From a phage: a stretch of 49,911 bases of DNA. The stretch lies in sequence record PZ445414.1; one strand, given 5' to 3'. This document shows, in pieces, positions 15,954-40,586 of the stretch (its first letter is position 1; every line of letters begins with the position of its first letter). A model generated the notes under the pieces. That model was not told where the DNA came from and did no database searches. It worked only from the letters and a program-made list of their open reading frames with translations. The translations under genes and the position numbers were made by a program.

Positions 15954-18900
15954 ATGATAAGCGGCAATAAGGGCGGCTCCTCTAAGCCGTACAAGCCAAA
16001 GGAGATGGAGGACAACCTGATCTCCATCAACAAAATCAAAATCCTCCTGGCGGTTTCAGACGGAGAGGTAGACGGCGAGTTTTCGCTAAAAAATCTCTAC
16101 CTTGACGACGTGCCAGTGCAAAACGCAGACGGATCGCTTAACTATAGCGGTGTTAGTGCTGAGTTCCGGCCAGGCACTCAAACGCAGGACTACATCAAGG
16201 GATTTTCAGACACGTCAAGCGAAATCACGATTCAGCGAGATCTGGCGCAGAATAACCCTTACAGCATTGCGGTAACAAACAAATCACTATCTGCTATCAG
16301 GATCAAAATCCTGATGCCTCAGGGCTACAAGCAGGAGGATAACGGCGATCTTGTTGGTGTTTCTGTGCAGTACGCAGTTGATATGGCAGTTGATGGCGGT
16401 TCGTTTAAGCGCGTGCTAACTGATACAATCACTGGTAAAACGACTAGCGGCTACGACAGGAGCCAGCGCATTGACCTGCCAAACTTCAACGAGCAGGTGA
16501 TTTTGCGAGTTAGTCGAGTTACGGAGGATTCAACATCAAGCCGCCTTGTCGATAAAATTCGTTTGCAGAGCTATGCGGAGGTTGTTGATGCAAAATTCCG
16601 TTATCCTCTGACTGGTTTAGTTTACGTTGAGTTTGATAGCGAGCTTTTCCCTAACCAGCTACCAAACATTTCTATCAAGAAGAAATGGAAGCTGATAAAC
16701 GTTCCTGTTAACTACGATCCAGAATCACGCGAATACTCAGGAAGCTGGAACGGTCTGTTTAAAAAGGCTTGGAGCAACAACCCAGCTTGGGTTCTGTATG
16801 ACCTGATCACCAATCAGCGCTACGGGCTAGACCAAAGAGAGCTTGGGATTGAGATTGACAAGTGGAGCATCTACGAGGCAGCACAGTATTGCGATCAGAT
16901 GGTTCCAGATGGCAAAGGAGGACTAGAGCCTCGCTATCTGTGTGATGTTGTTATCCAGAGCCAGATTGAAGCGTTTAACCTGATCCGTGATATTTGCTCT
17001 ATCTTCCGTGGCATGAGCTTTTGGAACGGAGAGAGCCTTTCTATCGTGGTGGATAAACCGCGTGATCCGTCTTACATTTTCAGTAATGACAACGTGGTTA
17101 ACGGCGATTTCCAGTACACCTTTGCAAGCGAGAAAAGCATGTACACGCAGTGTAACGTGACTTTCGACGACGAGCAAAACATGTACAGCCAGGATATTGA
17201 GGGCGTTTTCGACACTGAGGCCGCTTTGCGCTTTGGTCACAATCCGACAAGCATCACAGCAATCGGATGCACACGACGCAGCGAGGCGAACCGCCGAGGG
17301 CGCTGGATTCTCAAGACCAACCTGCGCAGCACCACGGTAAACTTTGCAACTGGTCTTGAGGGCATGATCCCGACAATCGGAGATGTGATCGCAATCGCGG
17401 ATAACTTCTGGGCTAGCAACTTGACGCTTAATCTTTCTGGGCGCGTCATGGAGGTTTCAGGGCTGCAAGTTTTCCTCCCGTTCCGAGTTGATGCGAGGCC
17501 TGGTGATTTTATCCTGATCAACAAGCCGGACGGAAAGCCAGTTAAGCGCACTATTTCACGAGTTAGCGCAGACGGGAAAACTATTGAGTTAAACGTTGGC
17601 TTTGGTTTCGACGTTAAGCCGGACACGGTTTTCGCAATCGACAGGACTGATCTTGCGTTGCAGCAGTACGTTGTTACCGGAATAACCAGGGGCGACGATA
17701 CGGAGCAATTCACGTACTCAATAACGGCTGTCGAATACGATCCAAACAAGTACGACGAGATTGATTACGGAGTGAACATTGACGACAGGCCAACAAGCAT
17801 TGTAAACCCTGGCGTGATGAAAGCGCCTGAAAATGTGCAGGTGTCCTCTTACTCTCGCATTGTTCAGGGGCAGAGCGTAGAAACGATGGTTGTTAGCTGG
17901 GATAAAGTCGAATACGCAAGCTTGTACGAGGTGCAATGGAGAAAGGACAATAGCAACTGGCTAAACGTTCCTCAGACTGCAAACAAAGAGGTTAGCGTTG
18001 AGGGTATTTACTCAGGCAACTACTTTGTAAGGGTTCGATCAGTATCCGCGTCTGGAAGCACGTCGCCGTGGTCTAGTGTTGTTTCAGCCGCATTAACTGG
18101 CAAGGTTGGCGAGCCTAAAATGCCTATTAACTTGACCGCCTCAGATAATGAGATATTTGGGATCCGCGTCAAGTGGGGTATACCTGAGGGTGCTGGCGAT
18201 ACTGCTTACATAGAGCTACAGCAAGCGCCGGACGTAGACGGAATGGCTAGCGAAGAAAACGCAACACTGCTAACTCTCGTTCCGTATCCTCAAATGGAGT
18301 ATTGGCACGCAACGTTACCACCTGGATATATCAACTGGTATCGAGTGCGAAGTGTTGACAGGATCGGAAACGTTTCTGCGTGGACTGACTTTGTGCGCGG
18401 TATGTCGTCAACTAACGTTGATGATATTTTAGGCGACATTCTTGATGATATTTTAAACTCTGCTGGGTTTGAGGAGTTCAAAGAGAATGCCGTAGATACT
18501 GCAAACAAGGTTAAAGACCAGGCGCAAAGCGTGATCCAGAATGCGCTAGCTATTGATACCAATCTGCGTTGGAACCGAGTAGAAAACGGGAAGCGTAAAG
18601 CGGAGCACGGACAGGCGCTTGAGCTTATCGCAAACGAAACAGAGGCGCGAATTCAGGCGGTTGAGGTTCTGCGAACTGAGTTTGACGAGGGCATCTCCTC
18701 TAACATTACAGAAGTCAAGAAATTGATTTCTAACGAGGCGGAAACGCGAGCGAGCCAGGTTCAGCAGTTAGACGCTACATTCACGAAAAAAGTTTCTGAC
18801 GTGAATGGTAGGGTTGACGGTGTTTCTCAAGAGATCGTTAAGACAAACGCAAACGTGAGTAGCGCACAGCAAGCGATTGCAAACGAGACTGAGGCAAGGA

Positions 18901-19532
18901 CTCAAGCGGTTAGCTCTCTTGACTCCAAGTTTACAGGGCAGATTAATGGCGTTAAGCAGGATTTATCCTCAAACGTCACGAGGTTGGATCAGTCTATCGC
19001 TAACGAGACTCAAGCGAGAGCCAGTGCTGACACTGCGTTGTCAACTCGTGTTGGTAAAACGGAATCGGCAATTACTCAGAAGCTTGACTCTTGGGTAGAC
19101 AACGGATCTATAGGTGCTCAGTACGCTCTCAAGCTTGGGATTAAACGTGCTGGTGTTGAGTACACGGCTGGAGTTTCGCTATCGCTAATCCAGTCAGGTA
19201 GCGAGATAAAATCTCAATTCCTGGTTGATGCGGCGAGGTTCGGGGTAATGACTAGGCAGGGAGGGAGCTACACATTGCCGTTTGTAGTTGATAATGGAAC
19301 GGTTATCATGAATACGGCGCTAATTAAAAACGGCTCTATAACAAACGCAATGATTGGTAACGTGATTCAGTCAAATAATTATGTTGCTGGCAAGTCCGGT
19401 TGGAGGCTGGACAAAAACGGAAACCTTGAGATCAATGGCAGCGCCGGAAATGGCAGACTGACCATTAACAATAACATTATCGCGGTTTACGATGGTAATG
19501 GTGTCTTGAGGGTTCGAATGGGGTTGTTCTAA
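15954..19532 (+). CDS. tail tip / host specificity protein J
   Basis: 1192 aa from ATG 15954 (SD GGAGG); N-terminus MISGNKGGSSKPYKPKE... like lambda J; FN3-like segments; repeated IANETEAR motifs near C-terminus. Confidence 0.8.
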   Translation: MISGNKGGSSKPYKPKEMEDNLISINKIKILLAVSDGEVDGEFSLKNLYLDDVPVQNADGSLNYSGVSAEFRPGTQTQDYIKGFSDTSSEITIQRDLAQNNPYSIAVTNKSLSAIRIKILMPQGYKQEDNGDLVGVSVQYAVDMAVDGGSFKRVLTDTITGKTTSGYDRSQRIDLPNFNEQVILRVSRVTEDSTSSRLVDKIRLQSYAEVVDAKFRYPLTGLVYVEFDSELFPNQLPNISIKKKWKLINVPVNYDPESREYSGSWNGLFKKAWSNNPAWVLYDLITNQRYGLDQRELGIEIDKWSIYEAAQYCDQMVPDGKGGLEPRYLCDVVIQSQIEAFNLIRDICSIFRGMSFWNGESLSIVVDKPRDPSYIFSNDNVVNGDFQYTFASEKSMYTQCNVTFDDEQNMYSQDIEGVFDTEAALRFGHNPTSITAIGCTRRSEANRRGRWILKTNLRSTTVNFATGLEGMIPTIGDVIAIADNFWASNLTLNLSGRVMEVSGLQVFLPFRVDARPGDFILINKPDGKPVKRTISRVSADGKTIELNVGFGFDVKPDTVFAIDRTDLALQQYVVTGITRGDDTEQFTYSITAVEYDPNKYDEIDYGVNIDDRPTSIVNPGVMKAPENVQVSSYSRIVQGQSVETMVVSWDKVEYASLYEVQWRKDNSNWLNVPQTANKEVSVEGIYSGNYFVRVRSVSASGSTSPWSSVVSAALTGKVGEPKMPINLTASDNEIFGIRVKWGIPEGAGDTAYIELQQAPDVDGMASEENATLLTLVPYPQMEYWHATLPPGYINWYRVRSVDRIGNVSAWTDFVRGMSSTNVDDILGDILDDILNSAGFEEFKENAVDTANKVKDQAQSVIQNALAIDTNLRWNRVENGKRKAEHGQALELIANETEARIQAVEVLRTEFDEGISSNITEVKKLISNEAETRASQVQQLDATFTKKVSDVNGRVDGVSQEIVKTNANVSSAQQAIANETEARTQAVSSLDSKFTGQINGVKQDLSSNVTRLDQSIANETQARASADTALSTRVGKTESAITQKLDSWVDNGSIGAQYALKLGIKRAGVEYTAGVSLSLIQSGSEIKSQFLVDAARFGVMTRQGGSYTLPFVVDNGTVIMNTALIKNGSITNAMIGNVIQSNNYVAGKSGWRLDKNGNLEINGSAGNGRLTINNNIIAVYDGNGVLRVRMGLF

Positions 19533-19538
19533 CAGAAA

Positions 19539-19567
19539 AGGGAGCCTTGCGGCTCCCTCTTTTTTTA
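19539..19567. terminator. bidirectional terminator between J (+) and secreted-protein gene (-)
   Basis: gggagcc ttgc ggctccc tctttttttt; A-rich on the other side. Confidence 0.7.
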
Positions 19568-19897
19568 CATCAATTTGTTGTGGTCAACAGGGATTCTGTT
19601 TGTTTGCTTGGTGATCATATCAAGCTTGTATTCATCGCCGCGATTCCACTCGAAGCGAAGGGTATACGTGTTAGCGTCACCGTGGCACATTACGTGCTTG
19701 AATTTGCGCAAGTGCTTGTCAAAGATCGCGTTTGTGCTCTCCTCAATCTTCACCGTCCGATCTGAGCAGTTTACAACGGCGACGGTTGAGCCAGTAAGAG
19801 ACATTCTGGAAGCTTCAACCGGATAGCCGATATTAACGTTCAAAGCCATAGCGTTTAAAGGCGCTACAAGAGCCATAGCGAGCATGATTTTTTTCAT
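19565..19897 (-). CDS. small secreted protein (signal peptide, 2 Cys); candidate moron
   Basis: 110 aa; N-terminal signal peptide MKKIMLAMALVAPLNAMA; own box-type promoter; opposite strand to structural operon; flanked by hairpins. Confidence 0.6.
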   Translation of the reverse strand: MKKIMLAMALVAPLNAMALNVNIGYPVEASRMSLTGSTVAVVNCSDRTVKIEESTNAIFDKHLRKFKHVMCHGDANTYTLRFEWNRGDEYKLDMITKQTNRIPVDHNKLM

Positions 19898-19953
19898 TTG
19901 TATTTCCTCGTTTCGTTAAGTTGAAATGAGTATAGCCCCATTTGCGGGGCTTG

Positions 19954-19972
19954 TTTTAGCAATTCGTGCGGT
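19954..19972 (-). promoter_or_regulatory. box variant upstream of secreted-protein gene
   Basis: minus-strand CCGCACGAATTGCTAAAA followed by hairpin, TATACT and conserved leader. Confidence 0.4.
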
Positions 19973-20625
19973 TAGTTGTAACCCTGGAATTTCGCGTATG
20001 GTATTTTGAGGTTTCCGCACCCGTTAAAGATTTCAGAGAAAGAGCGCTGGTTTCTTCTGATCCAGTATGTCTGCAACTGCGAACCAGTCCAGCGCATGAG
20101 GTTGCCTGAATAACCCTGCGTTTCTCCGTCGTCGCTCCATTCGCCGTAGCAGGCATCCCATAGAAAGAATGGGTTAAAACCTGGAGTCACGGAGGCAACT
20201 CTAGCCTCAAGATTGAAAGACGCTGGAACGTCAAGGAATCCCATTATTCGAGGCATTGTTGCGGCGCTGGCGGCAGTCCAAACAAGATTACCGGAAGCGT
20301 CGAATACGTCGAGATAGCCGGACTTAAGTGCCTTGTTTCTCGAAGTCCTGATTATCCTGATTGCGTTAGTGCTGAACATATCCGCGCCAGGGTAGCCCCA
20401 CTGGTTATTACCTGTAAACTGAATCCAGGTTAGAAAGCCATCCTTGCGCTTATCACCATCGCGAAGATTGCCAAGGGCTTTAACGTCGCCAAATGGCGTG
20501 CTTAGGCTGTAAGCCCCAACGTCAATTAGCGGTTGCGGAGTGTAGATAGAATCAAAGATCGTATGCTTTTGATCGGAGTTGATCAGGACAACCCCCGCGT
20601 TATTACGTACCTCAAAGCCTGACAT
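19972..20625 (-). CDS. hypothetical protein (possibly tail-associated)
   Basis: 217 aa; SD AGGAGG; shares DASGNLV motif with 20634..20939. Confidence 0.5.
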   Translation of the reverse strand: MSGFEVRNNAGVVLINSDQKHTIFDSIYTPQPLIDVGAYSLSTPFGDVKALGNLRDGDKRKDGFLTWIQFTGNNQWGYPGADMFSTNAIRIIRTSRNKALKSGYLDVFDASGNLVWTAASAATMPRIMGFLDVPASFNLEARVASVTPGFNPFFLWDACYGEWSDDGETQGYSGNLMRWTGSQLQTYWIRRNQRSFSEIFNGCGNLKIPYAKFQGYN

Positions 20626-20633
20626 AAAGCCTC

Positions 20634-20939
20634 CTAGTTAAACATGTAAACTTCAATGGTAAGAGTCTGATCAGCAAACGGATTGCTTGTTGGCAGGTAA
20701 AGAACATCAACGCCGCCGTTTCTCGTCACGGCTGCATAGCTTTGTTTATACACAGCGCCAGCAGATGCCGCCATGACAACCGCGAACGAGTTGGAACCAG
20801 TCAGCCCAGCTACGTTGAAAGAAACCGAGCGAGTAGTTCGCGGGAATGAAATGTTTTTCCGGACAACAAAGCGCGTACTGAAATCGCCAAGATCGACAAC
20901 CAGGTTTCCGCTTGCATCCCATGCTTGAAGACCAGGCAT
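20634..20939 (-). CDS. hypothetical protein (paralogous motif DASGNLV)
   Basis: 101 aa; SD GAGAGGTGG; driven by sigma70-like promoter in AT-rich region. Confidence 0.5.
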   Translation of the reverse strand: MPGLQAWDASGNLVVDLGDFSTRFVVRKNISFPRTTRSVSFNVAGLTGSNSFAVVMAASAGAVYKQSYAAVTRNGGVDVLYLPTSNPFADQTLTIEVYMFN

Positions 20940-20975
20940 AATGCCACCTCTCTAGTTTGCTTATTAAGTGCATTT

Positions 20976-21004
20976 AATATACAGGCGCGGCGTAATCATT
21001 TCAA
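20976..21004 (-). promoter_or_regulatory. sigma70-like promoter TTGAAA-N17-TATATT (minus strand)
   Basis: reverse complement of 20976-21004; upstream of minus gene starting 20939. Confidence 0.55.
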
Positions 21005-21125
21005 TGGCAAATGCAAAACCTTACCTTAATTGTTCTTTTTGTTTCTCTGTGTTCTCGATTGCACCCACCGCAGAATCGCACAACGTTTTAGAACAGAAAA
21101 AACAAAATAAATCATCTATAATATA

Positions 21126-21157
21126 TAATAAAATCAATAGTTTAGTTTATATGTATT
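21126..21157. repeat. conserved ~30-bp AT-rich element containing IHF-consensus-like AATCAATAGTTTA (copy A)
   Basis: taataaaatcaatagtttagtttatatgtat; near-identical copy at 40555. Confidence 0.5.
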
Positions 21158-21388
21158 TGTATGTTGTTATTTATTGTTTCCAATGTTTCAGTGTTAATTG
21201 ATGTACTGGCTTTCTTTAGTCTGGATATCTCTATTATCCATTTGATGTGTGTATTTATATAAACCCCACCGCAAATCCGTGAACAATGAAACAAAAAATA
21301 ACGACGTTTAAAATCATGCACTTAAGAGCTGATTTTGTTATCGGGGTTGAAAGATGTGTTTCGAGAACAGAAAAAACAATTGAAGGTA

Positions 21389-21416
21389 TTGACTAAACGC
21401 CACAAATGGCTACAAT
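21389..21416 (+). promoter_or_regulatory. sigma70-like promoter TTGACT-N16-TACAAT for recombination module
   Basis: ttgact 21389-21394, tacaat 21411-21416; ~30 nt upstream of exonuclease ATG. Confidence 0.6.
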
Positions 21417-21446
21417 GCACGTATACCAACACACAGGAGCGAAAGA

Positions 21447-30198: not shown

Positions 30199-30477
30199 AT
30201 GAAAAAGATGTTATCAGTAGTTGCTTTATCGCTTGCCATTGTCGGTTGCATGGATAAACCAAAAGCATATATTTGCGGAAATGAAGTGTTTGAGGTTACA
30301 AGCGAATACATGAAAGTTGTACAAGGTAAAAACACAGGCGTTGTAATGGATAATATCAGCAAAAATAAATACAAGCTGTTTACGCCAATTGGAACAGCTT
30401 TTTACACTGTTAACGATAGCACCATTGATGTTAGAGTCGGAATCTTTCAGCACACTTTAACTTGCGAGGTGAAATAA
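30199..30477 (+). CDS. lipoprotein (candidate superinfection-exclusion protein)
   Basis: 92 aa; signal peptide with lipobox LAIVGC; box-type promoter upstream. Confidence 0.55.
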   Translation: MKKMLSVVALSLAIVGCMDKPKAYICGNEVFEVTSEYMKVVQGKNTGVVMDNISKNKYKLFTPIGTAFYTVNDSTIDVRVGIFQHTLTCEVK

Positions 30478-40554: not shown

Positions 40555-40586
40555 TAATAAAATCAATAGTTTATTTTATATATATT
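40555..40586. repeat. conserved ~30-bp AT-rich element containing IHF-consensus-like AATCAATAGTTTA (copy B)
   Basis: taataaaatcaatagtttattttatatatat; matches WATCAANNNNTTR. Confidence 0.5.

What the first reader, a model, noticed from the sequence alone, without database searches (positions are those of the whole stretch)
19565..19972. Moron-like secreted protein gene inserted antisense after the tail operon
Seen in sequence: 19565..19897 (minus) encodes a 110-aa protein with a cleavable signal peptide (MKKIMLAMALVAPLNAMA) and two cysteines; it has its own box-type promoter (19954-19972) with conserved leader, and is bracketed by hairpins (19539-19567, 19935-19950), opposite in orientation to the preceding 19.5-kb structural operon. 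Inference: periplasmic moron, possibly receptor-masking or superinfection-exclusion function.
Basis: partly seen in the sequence, partly recalled or inferred. Interest (0 to 1): 0.5.

Follow-up and report, generated by a model that had tools for sequence, protein, structure and literature searches.

The report
Phage TonB-like receptor-blocking periplasmic protein (SIP-1)
This small secreted phage protein looks like the tip of the bacterial TonB protein and most likely plugs the phage's own receptor (PqqU/YncD) from inside the cell envelope to stop further phage attachment, but that idea was already published in 2025 from computer models and has not been tested at the bench.

The parts
19565..19897 (-). 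CDS bas10_0024 / QXV80559 ('SIP-1'), 110 aa, including the stop codon
   Evidence: ORF list and GenBank annotation. Homologues in 44 phage records and 69 protein clusters. dN/dS 0.14.
19844..19897 (-). Signal peptide codons 1-18 (MKKIMLAMALVAPLNAMA), with predicted SPase I cleavage after A18
   Evidence: Sequence features. The equivalent position holds an A-x-A signal, a lipobox or an internal anchor in homologues. Published SignalP-6.0 call. A recombination breakpoint with the NBD2-type allele falls here.
19568..19843 (-). Mature periplasmic domain (92 aa). Residues 1-70 form a TonB-CTD-like alpha-beta-beta-alpha-beta core with Cys26 and Cys53 (C44 and C71 of the precursor). Residues 72-92 form a low-confidence tail that contains invariant R101.
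19954..19974 (-). 21-nt 'box' (TAACCGCACGAATTGCTAAAA), G-type copy of the T1-like repeat aaATAGCACnnnTTGnTAAAA. It overlaps the stop codon of RBP-1.
   Evidence: The repeat is described in phage TLS with unknown function. It is conserved upstream of the homologous gene in JohannLBurckhardt, NBD2, IME347 and TH30.
19929..19934 (-). -10-like hexamer TATACT at the family's fixed offset (40 nt from 5 nt upstream of the GCAC core). The transcription start is predicted near 19922.
   Evidence: 13 box copies have a -10-like hexamer at exactly this offset, and 16 within +/-1 nt. No canonical -35 lies at 16-18 nt.
19934..19951 (.). 6-bp GC hairpin in the box/-10 spacer. It is terminator-like only on the + strand.
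   Evidence: -13.4 kcal/mol, z -2.3. Present in NBD2 and IME347; degenerate in JohannLBurckhardt and TH30.
19905..19909 (-). Shine-Dalgarno GAGGA, 7 nt upstream of the ATG, at the end of the conserved 'AACGAAACGA' leader
19539..19558 (.). Bidirectional intrinsic terminator shared by gpJ (+) and the minus-strand cassette
   Evidence: -19.6 and -16.9 kcal/mol, z -4.7 and -4.4, U-tracts on both strands.
19972..20625 (-). RBP-1 (bas10_0025, QXV80560, 217 aa), the PqqU-binding protein family (phrog_4524; Pfam DUF8377 in homologues)
   Evidence: Predicted PqqU-binding role from PMC12124388 and from receptor/locus correlation.
20634..20939 (-). RBP-2 (bas10_0026, QXV80561, 101 aa), predicted partner of RBP-1
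20976..21004 (-). Sigma-70-like promoter TTGAAA-17-TATATT upstream of RBP-2. It could drive read-through transcription of all three genes.
   Evidence: 10 of 12 matches. Consensus match only.
15954..19532 (+). gpJ-like central tail fibre, the last gene of the tail operon, convergent with the cassette

Best explanation
bas10_0024 encodes a receptor-blocking ('superinfection exclusion' or lytic-conversion) protein specific for PqqU/YncD, the TonB-dependent transporter that phage IsaakIselin uses as its terminal receptor.

Shown by the sequence: the protein is made with a cleavable signal peptide, and the mature 92-residue domain carries two conserved cysteines.

Predicted: it folds like the C-terminal domain of TonB.

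Inferred steps:
1. It is transcribed from its own box-type promoter together with the non-structural genes, and possibly also by read-through from the RBP promoter.
2. It is exported by Sec and forms one disulfide.
3. It docks on the periplasmic face of PqqU, probably using TonB-like beta-strand pairing with the TonB box and plug.
4. It holds the transporter in a state whose extracellular loops no longer accept the RBP-1/RBP-2 tip. As a result, infected cells and their debris stop adsorbing PqqU-dependent phages.

In temperate lambdoid relatives the same domain is an outer-membrane lipoprotein encoded antisense in the tail region. There it would protect lysogens.
For: 1. Identity and receptor. 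The window is IsaakIselin. Its infection depends on YncD/PqqU, is complemented by yncD, and is blocked by PQQ.
2. Linkage. All 44 phage records with a homologue also carry the RBP-1 family. PqqU dependence has been shown experimentally for five carriers: Bas10, Bas11, IME347, KLB19 and KLB26. The gene is absent from most Drexlerviridae; for comparison, an unrelated core lipoprotein is found in 273 records.
3. Periplasmic location is conserved through three different targeting devices: SPase I signal, lipobox without Asp+2, and internal anchor.
5. Sequence. The family profile hits only TonB chains among 177,635 PDB sequences (best E=0.059), aligning YPvdAaRlSLgGdv.v with YPxRAxALxIEGxVxV. hhalign gives P about 1e-3 to 3e-3. 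There is a weak NCBIfam TonB hit on the CTD region.
6. Position. The locus downstream of gpJ encodes RBPs plus exclusion factors in sister alleles. Rtp45 and Llp are structurally proven periplasmic-face blockers.
7. Expression signal. The box/-10/leader module is otherwise found in front of non-structural genes.
8. Independent published in-silico work on this exact protein ('SIP-1') reports a high-confidence AF2-multimer complex with the periplasmic side of PqqU, a SignalP signal peptide, and Foldseek similarity to the TonB C-terminus.
Against: - No experiment exists. No exclusion, adsorption or binding assay was found in the literature searched.
- The models are of moderate confidence (pTM 0.58-0.59). 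The C-terminal 20 residues, which contain invariant R101, are unmodelled.
- Similarity to TonB is below every curated threshold. No member hits Pfam TonB_C. An exhaustive HMMER search of 1.84 billion representatives found only 21 family members and no TonB. hhalign probability is low. Homology as opposed to convergence is therefore not proven.
- TonB-box binding is generic to all TonB-dependent transporters, so the basis of PqqU specificity is unexplained.
- Alleles of this gene and of RBP-1 recombine independently. Against JohannLBurckhardt the identities are 96% for this gene and 59% for RBP-1; against NBD2 they are 52% and 98%. This is compatible with a target on the receptor's periplasmic face, but it gives no positive support.
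- Some phages with RBP-1/2 relatives lack the gene (SG01, JVSB2), so it is dispensable for infection.
- The 'early' timing rests only on promoter-family membership, and the function of the box itself is an open question.
Confidence: 0.7

Rival explanations
1. General TonB decoy. The protein competes with TonB for the TonB boxes of many transporters. It would shut down TonB-dependent uptake as a whole and exclude TonB-dependent phages (T1, phi80) and colicins, rather than acting specifically on PqqU.
For: The fold and motif resemble the part of TonB that binds the TonB boxes of all transporters. Nothing in the sequence yet explains specificity for PqqU.
Against: The gene is found only together with the PqqU-type RBP-1 family (44 of 44 records). 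It is not found in FhuA-, BtuB- or LptD-type loci of otherwise similar phages. The published multimer model shows a defined complex with PqqU. Bas10 itself does not need TonB, so a general TonB block would not exclude its own kind unless PqqU's conformation also changes.
Confidence: 0.12
2. Post-adsorption block. The protein binds PqqU or another periplasmic partner and prevents a step after RBP binding (plug displacement, tail-tip insertion or DNA passage) without changing adsorption.
For: Periplasmic location. TonB normally acts on the plug. Some exclusion proteins act after adsorption (general knowledge, for example T4 Imm/Sp).
Against: The structurally solved analogues at the same genomic position (Llp, Rtp45) abolish RBP binding by altering extracellular loops. 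PQQ-induced loop closure alone already blocks this phage. There is no evidence that siphophage DNA crosses through the transporter.
Confidence: 0.1
3. Virion-assembly or RBP-maturation factor, co-transcribed with RBP-2 and RBP-1 as a structural accessory.
For: Same strand and same cassette as the RBP genes. In KLB26, PHB17 and KMI8 it follows RBP-1 by about 10 nt with no separate promoter. The hairpin between the genes is not a minus-strand terminator.
Against: Every family member has an export signal, whereas tails assemble in the cytoplasm. In lambdoid relatives the gene is antisense to the tail operon and encodes an outer-membrane lipoprotein. In KW1E_UTAR and KLB22 it lies about 28 kb away from the RBP genes. 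Phages with RBP-1/2 but without this gene exist.
Confidence: 0.03

Closest known systems
SIP-1 (QXV80559) of phage IsaakIselin, as proposed in 'High-affinity PQQ import is widespread in Gram-negative bacteria', Sci Adv 2025 (PMC12124388)
   Same: It is the same protein. That paper already reports the signal peptide (SignalP-6.0), Foldseek similarity to the TonB C-terminus, a high-confidence AlphaFold2-multimer complex with the periplasmic side of PqqU, and the exclusion hypothesis. It also names RBP-1 (QXV80560) and RBP-2 (QXV80561).
   Different: Nothing differs in substance.
- a family census (69 clusters at 90% identity, 21 representatives at 50%);
- the lipoprotein and membrane-anchored variants;
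- the shared TonB sequence motif;
- the 44/44 linkage to RBP-1;
- the promoter-family membership;
- the recombination breakpoints.
Llp of phage T5 (and the related Cor lipoproteins of T1, phi80, N15)
   Same: A small exported phage protein encoded next to the RBP gene. Llp is expressed early and has one intramolecular disulfide. It binds the periplasmic face of a TonB-dependent transporter (FhuA) and allosterically closes extracellular loops so that the RBP cannot bind.
   Different: Llp and Cor are lipoproteins of about 60-80 residues with an unrelated fold, and Llp does not contact the TonB box. The Bas10 protein has an SPase I signal and no lipobox, a mature size of 92 residues, and a TonB-CTD-like fold. 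It has no detectable sequence similarity to any PHROG or Pfam family annotated as Cor, Llp or exclusion. The receptor is PqqU, not FhuA.
Rtp45 of phage Rtp (and its counterpart SE_Oeko in phage Oekolampad)
   Same: An accessory gene of the same hypervariable locus downstream of gpJ in small siphoviruses. The cryo-EM structure shows it on the periplasmic side of the receptor, preventing RBP binding.
   Different: It is a lipoprotein of about 6 kDa that targets LptDE, which is not a TonB-dependent transporter. It acts by steric insertion of a hairpin into the LptD lumen, and it has no TonB-like fold.
TonB C-terminal domain (Pfam TonB_C, PF03544; PDB 2GRX, 1XX3, 6I97, 7ZC8)
   Different: It has no N-terminal ExbBD-coupled anchor and no proline-rich spacer, so it cannot transduce energy. 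It has two cysteines that TonB lacks. It fails the Pfam and HMMER thresholds. It is phage-encoded and receptor-linked.

Membership tests
Receptor-blocking exclusion proteins of siphophage RBP loci (Llp / Cor / Rtp45 class) | Encoded next to the receptor-binding protein gene, in the variable locus at the tail-tip gene | tested here: met
   The gene lies 74 nt downstream of RBP-1 in the cassette after gpJ. The same linkage is seen in JohannLBurckhardt, NBD2, IME347, KLB26, KMI8, PHB17, HK639, CharmingMan, Flotzy and Enterobacter prophages. Exceptions: KW1E_UTAR and KLB22, where it is unlinked.
Receptor-blocking exclusion proteins of siphophage RBP loci (Llp / Cor / Rtp45 class) | Exported to the periplasm | tested here: met
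   N-terminal signal with A-x-A. All homologues carry an export signal. Published SignalP-6.0 prediction. This is prediction only; there is no localisation experiment.
Receptor-blocking exclusion proteins of siphophage RBP loci (Llp / Cor / Rtp45 class) | Lipoprotein (lipobox with acylated Cys, anchored in the outer membrane) | tested here: not met
   The Bas10 protein has no Cys before residue 44 and has an SPase I site. The feature is met by the ~120-aa homologues of HK639-type phages and prophages (LLAGC, MFGC and similar, with no Asp at +2).
Receptor-blocking exclusion proteins of siphophage RBP loci (Llp / Cor / Rtp45 class) | Sequence similarity to Llp or Cor | tested here: not met
   The only PHROG hit is phrog_25729 (unknown function). 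There are no significant Pfam, NCBIfam or PADLOC hits.
Receptor-blocking exclusion proteins of siphophage RBP loci (Llp / Cor / Rtp45 class) | Binds the periplasmic face of the receptor and abolishes adsorption of same-receptor phages | not testable with these tools
   Complex prediction with PqqU could not be run here. A published AF2-multimer model supports binding. No phenotype data were found.
TonB C-terminal domain (Pfam TonB_C) | Characteristic alpha/beta fold (three-stranded sheet packed against helices) | tested here: met
TonB C-terminal domain (Pfam TonB_C) | Sequence signature YP-x-x-A...G-x-V-x-V, at a level that passes curated or statistical thresholds | tested here: inconclusive
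   The motif aligns, and TonB chains are the only PDB hits, but at E=0.059-1.5. hhalign P is 1e-3 to 3e-3 with low probability. No Pfam TonB_C hit for any of 60 members. No TonB among the exhaustive HMMER hits.
TonB C-terminal domain (Pfam TonB_C) | Part of an energy transducer: N-terminal inner-membrane anchor coupled to ExbBD, plus a proline-rich periplasmic spacer | tested here: not met
   The mature protein is the 92-aa domain alone. The fused variants have an unrelated N-terminal region with HxEALAMD repeats and no Pro-rich spacer.
TonB C-terminal domain (Pfam TonB_C) | Binds TonB boxes by beta-strand augmentation | not testable with these tools
   Needs a complex structure or TonB-box mutants of PqqU.
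Moron (independent transcription unit added between genes that are adjacent in relatives) | Own promoter and own terminator | tested here: inconclusive
   The terminator is clear. The promoter is a full copy of the phage's box/-10/leader module, whose activity is unproven. There is no separate promoter in KLB26, PHB17 or KMI8.
Moron (independent transcription unit added between genes that are adjacent in relatives) | Absent from between the same neighbours in related phages | tested here: met
   RBP-1 abuts the tail fibre gene in KW1E_UTAR and JVSB2. SG01 has no such gene after RBP-1. In HK639-type phages the antisense lipoprotein gene lies between RBP-1 and the tail fibre gene.
Moron (independent transcription unit added between genes that are adjacent in relatives) | Base composition distinct from the surrounding genome | tested here: not met
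   GC is 45.9%, against 48.2% for the genome and 49.4% for RBP-1.

The most novel reading that the evidence does not exclude
The family is a host TonB C-terminal domain captured by phages. It acts more broadly than a one-receptor blocker. As a soluble, lipid-anchored or inner-membrane-anchored decoy, it would compete with TonB at the TonB boxes of several transporters. Lysogens or infected cells would then lose PQQ and possibly other TonB-dependent uptake, and would gain cross-resistance to TonB-dependent phages and colicins. The three targeting formats would tune reach and dosage.
Probability: 0.12. Interest if true: 0.55.

Novelty: already known. Interest (0 to 1): 0.3.

Why it matters
If confirmed, this would be the first exclusion factor built from a copy of the host's own energy-transducer domain. 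That is a different structural solution from the Llp, Cor and Rtp45 lipoproteins for the same task. It would give a natural protein ligand for the periplasmic face of a TonB-dependent transporter, and a simple way to predict or engineer resistance to PqqU-targeting phages. The idea is already in print as a modelling result. What remains valuable is the bench test, together with the wider family picture: lipoprotein versions in Enterobacter, E. coli and Klebsiella prophages, and independent shuffling of the blocker and RBP alleles.

Tried and rejected
- **Canonical sigma-70 promoter upstream of the ORF.** The scan finds none. TTGCTA and TATACT are 22 nt apart, so the promoter claim rests only on membership of the box family.
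- **Curated family searches.** Pfam, NCBIfam and PADLOC give no significant hits. PHROGs gives only families of unknown function.
- **Rfam over the whole window.** Nothing found.
- **Homology to Cor or Llp.** None detectable.
- **Second lipoprotein as the true PqqU blocker.** The gene at 30199..30477 was considered and rejected. It occurs in 273 phage records whatever the receptor, including the TolC phage LL5 and Klebsiella weberviruses.
- **Exhaustive profile search to bridge the family to TonB.** It found only 21 family representatives and no TonB.
- **afdb50 Foldseek.** Not available. BFVD returned only unannotated family members.
- **Census in complete E. coli genomes.** The HK639-type gene is in only 3 of 5,426 genomes, so it is rare in E. 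coli itself.
- **Complex modelling with PqqU.** Not possible under the tool's input restrictions.
- **Transcriptome data for Drexlerviridae promoters.** A literature search found nothing relevant.

Full report
**What the window is.** The region 19300..21000 matches Escherichia phage IsaakIselin (Bas10, MZ501077.1; Drexlerviridae, Tempevirinae) at 99.9%, and the record has the same length as the window. Window coordinate = record coordinate - 533. Bas10's terminal receptor is the TonB-dependent transporter YncD, now called PqqU. Infection is lost in a yncD mutant and restored by complementation (supplementary table). Infection is TonB-independent and is blocked by the substrate PQQ.

**Check of the observation.**
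- The ORF 19565..19897(-) exists and is annotated as bas10_0024, a hypothetical protein, QXV80559.
- It has a GAGGA ribosome-binding site 7 nt before the ATG.
- It matches phrog_25729 at E=5.8e-29 and has homologues in 44 phage records.
- dN/dS is 0.14 against its JohannLBurckhardt orthologue. It is a real gene.
- The N-terminus MKKIMLAMALVAPLNAMA|L has the n/h/c layout and A-x-A of a signal peptidase I substrate.
- The two cysteines are C44 and C71. C71 is invariant and C44 nearly so in a 60-sequence alignment.
- The downstream hairpin 19539..19558 is a strong bidirectional terminator.
- The upstream hairpin 19934..19951 is weaker and has a T-run only on the + strand. It sits inside the promoter spacer and does not terminate the preceding minus-strand gene.

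**The 'box-type promoter'.**
- The motif at 19974..19954(-) belongs to a repeat family with 21 exact matches to GCAC-N4-DGYTAA, where 0.7 are expected by chance.
- Thirteen copies have a TATAAT-like hexamer at exactly the same offset (16 within one base), followed by a 'CAaCGAAACGA' leader, GAGGA, and a start codon 74-85 nt from the box.
- The copy in front of the target gene has TATACT at that offset and its ATG at 77 nt.
- Full copies otherwise precede non-structural genes. Copies in the structural region lack the -10 and leader part.
- The same 21-nt repeat (aaATAGCACnnnTTGnTAAAA, about 76 nt upstream of start codons) is described for phage TLS, and its function is listed there as an open question.
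- The box, -10 and leader are conserved in front of the orthologous gene in JohannLBurckhardt, NBD2, IME347 and TH30. They are absent in KLB26, PHB17 and KMI8, where the gene follows RBP-1 by about 10 nt.
- No canonical -35/-10 pair is present.
Its promoter activity and early timing are inferences.

**Context.**
- The gene is not a solitary antisense insert. Three consecutive minus-strand genes follow gpJ: 20634..20939 (101 aa), 19972..20625 (217 aa), and the target.
- A sigma-70-like promoter lies upstream of the first of the three.
- This is the 'bona fide RBP locus', whose alleles correlate with receptor specificity in small siphoviruses. The literature expects it to encode RBPs plus exclusion factors.

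**Comparative evidence.**
- All 44 phage records with a homologue of the target also contain a homologue of the 217-aa protein. Fifteen further records have only the latter.
- PqqU dependence is experimentally documented for Bas10, Bas11, IME347, KLB19 and KLB26.
- The two genes recombine independently:

| Phage | Target gene identity | 217-aa protein (RBP-1) identity |
|---|---|---|
| JohannLBurckhardt | 96% | 59% |
| NBD2 | 52% | 98% |

- JohannLBurckhardt also shares the end of gpJ. The breakpoints lie at the signal-peptide codons.
- In the lambdoid phages HK639, CharmingMan and Flotzy, and in Enterobacter prophages, the 100-aa and 213-aa genes follow gpJ on the same strand with overlapping stops. 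The target's homologue lies antisense between them and the side tail fibre gene. It is unannotated in the HK639 record.
- In KW1E_UTAR, KLB22 and related sequences, the domain is the C-terminal part of proteins of 196-271 aa, placed behind an internal signal-like hydrophobic segment. In KW1E_UTAR and KLB22 the gene lies far from the RBP genes.
- The conserved domain is thus delivered to the periplasm in three ways: a cleavable signal in virulent Drexlerviridae, a lipobox without Asp+2 in temperate phages and prophages, and an internal anchor in the fused forms. This argues strongly against a virion or assembly role.
- The family is small: 69 clusters at 90% identity, 21 representatives among 1.84 billion at 50% identity, and only 3 of 5,426 complete E. 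coli genomes.

**Fold.**
- An AlphaFold2 model of the mature Bas10 protein has pLDDT 75 and pTM 0.59. The core, residues 1-70, scores 74-91, and the C-terminal 20 residues are unmodelled. The topology is alpha-beta-beta-alpha-beta.
- A second model, of a 28%-identical prophage lipoprotein (core pLDDT 90-95), gives the same seven hits with 12-23% structure-based identity.
- At the sequence level, the family profile hits only TonB chains among all PDB sequences (E=0.059, 0.41, 1.5). It aligns 'YPvdAaRlSLgGdvevnidC' with 'YPxRAxALxIEGxVxVxFD'.
- hhalign against E. coli TonB CTD gives P about 1e-3. Against a 12-sequence TonB alignment it gives P about 3e-3 over 67 columns that include the third strand.
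- An NCBIfam TonB model weakly hits the HK639 homologue over its CTD region (E=0.029).
- No member reaches Pfam TonB_C, and the exhaustive search does not reach TonB.
- The TonB-like fold is therefore well supported as a prediction. True homology is plausible but unproven.

**Mechanism.** The best reading is a periplasmic decoy of the TonB C-terminal domain. It would dock on PqqU from the inside and lock the transporter in a state that the RBP-1/RBP-2 tip cannot bind. This is functionally analogous to two solved cases. Llp acts on FhuA and causes loops EL7 and EL8 to fold inward. Rtp45 acts on LptDE. It also fits the finding that loop closure of PqqU on PQQ binding already blocks this phage. 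The export signal and the conserved cysteines are shown by the sequence, the fold is predicted, and the linkage to the RBP genes is shown by comparison. Binding to PqqU, the use of the TonB box, the disulfide, the early timing and the exclusion phenotype are all inferred.

**Prior art.** A targeted literature search led to Sci Adv 2025;11:eadr2753 (PMC12124388). That paper names QXV80559 'SIP-1'. It reports a SignalP-6.0 signal peptide, Foldseek similarity to the TonB C-terminus, and a high-confidence AlphaFold2-multimer complex with the periplasmic side of PqqU. [quoted passage not shown] It also models QXV80560 and QXV80561 as RBP-1 and RBP-2 on the extracellular face. The analysis here reached the same conclusion independently, so the finding is already known as a computational proposal. 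No experimental test was found.

**Rivals.**
- A general TonB competitor is disfavoured by the exclusive linkage to PqqU-type RBPs.
- A post-adsorption block cannot be excluded without adsorption assays.
- A structural or assembly role is contradicted by the export signals, the antisense lipoprotein versions and the unlinked versions.

**Verdict.** The functional interpretation is right in kind. The 'moron inserted antisense' framing fits the temperate relatives better than it fits this virulent phage. Novelty is low because of the 2025 paper. The remaining value lies in the untested phenotype and in the family-wide picture assembled here.

Noticed in passing
Window, more than 20 sites. Full copies at 19969(-), 27634(+), 30126(+), 31587(+), 36889(-), 37778(-), 39083(-), 39818(-), 40263(-), 41613(+), 42815(+), 44475(+), 45201(+), 46303(+), 47318(+). 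Truncated copies at 1572(+), 6092(-), 7887(+), 15923(+).: A composite element: 21-nt box aaATAGCAC-N3-TTGYTAAAA, a spacer of about 18 nt that often forms a GC hairpin of varying sequence, a TATAAT-like hexamer at a fixed offset (22 nt after TTGYTA, too far for a normal -35), a 'CAaCGAAACGA' leader, GAGGA, and an ATG. The box is the repeat described in phage TLS, whose function is listed there as an open question. The fixed -10 spacing and the restriction of full copies to non-structural genes suggest an unusual promoter class that needs a factor or an UP-like contact.
   Followed up: partly
window 30199..30477 (+): A 92-aa predicted lipoprotein (MKKMLSVVALSLAIVGC..., phrog_7420) behind a full box promoter. 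It is present in 273 phage records whatever the receptor (Klebsiella weberviruses, TolC phage LL5, Citrobacter phages). It is therefore a conserved envelope-targeted protein of unknown role, not a receptor-specific blocker.
   Followed up: partly
L005 3920..4282 (+), which is HM208537.1 23535..23897, complement: Phage HK639 encodes a 120-aa lipoprotein homologue of the target (MKLLFAAALLLVAGC...). It is not annotated in the GenBank record. The annotated 52-aa 'HK639_26' on the opposite strand overlaps its start and is probably spurious.
   Followed up: yes
L006 3021..3791 and L014 2521..3291; proteins P0132-P0135: Fused variants of 196-271 aa. They have a variable N-terminal region with repeated 'HxEALAMD(A/V)E' motifs, then an internal signal-like segment (RRNSLSHK-IGLAFAGAALLFSG-T(H/R)A|EV), then the TonB-like domain. 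In KW1E_UTAR and KLB22 the gene lies in the replication or early region, far from the RBP genes. Whether the internal segment is cleaved is unknown.
   Followed up: partly
window 19972..20939 (-), compared with L005, L007, L019 and L020: The RBP-2/RBP-1 pair is inverted relative to gpJ in Bas10-like Drexlerviridae. It is co-directional with gpJ and overlaps it in HK639-type phages, KW1E_UTAR, JVSB2 and SG01. The cassette therefore moves and flips as a unit.
   Followed up: partly
window 20634..20939 (-) residues 4-14, and 19972..20625 (-) residues 105-115: RBP-2 and RBP-1 share a short motif: LQAWDASGNLV and LDVFDASGNLV. A similar motif occurs at the RBP-1 N-terminus (GFEVRNNAGVV). This hints at a repeated beta-hairpin unit or distant paralogy.
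   Followed up: no
window 20940..21446; repeat 21126..21157 and 40555..40586: An AT-rich (33.7% GC) 500-nt intergenic region lies between the divergent RBP-2 and exonuclease genes. It contains a 32-nt sequence repeated at 94% identity in another intergenic region about 19 kb away. Its function is unknown.
   Followed up: no
protein P0138 (1,641 aa, from the representative library): A very long protein matches positions 35-65 of the family profile in eight separate stretches (E=9.5e-10). It may be a repeat protein that shares the beta-hairpin motif. It was not examined.
   Followed up: no
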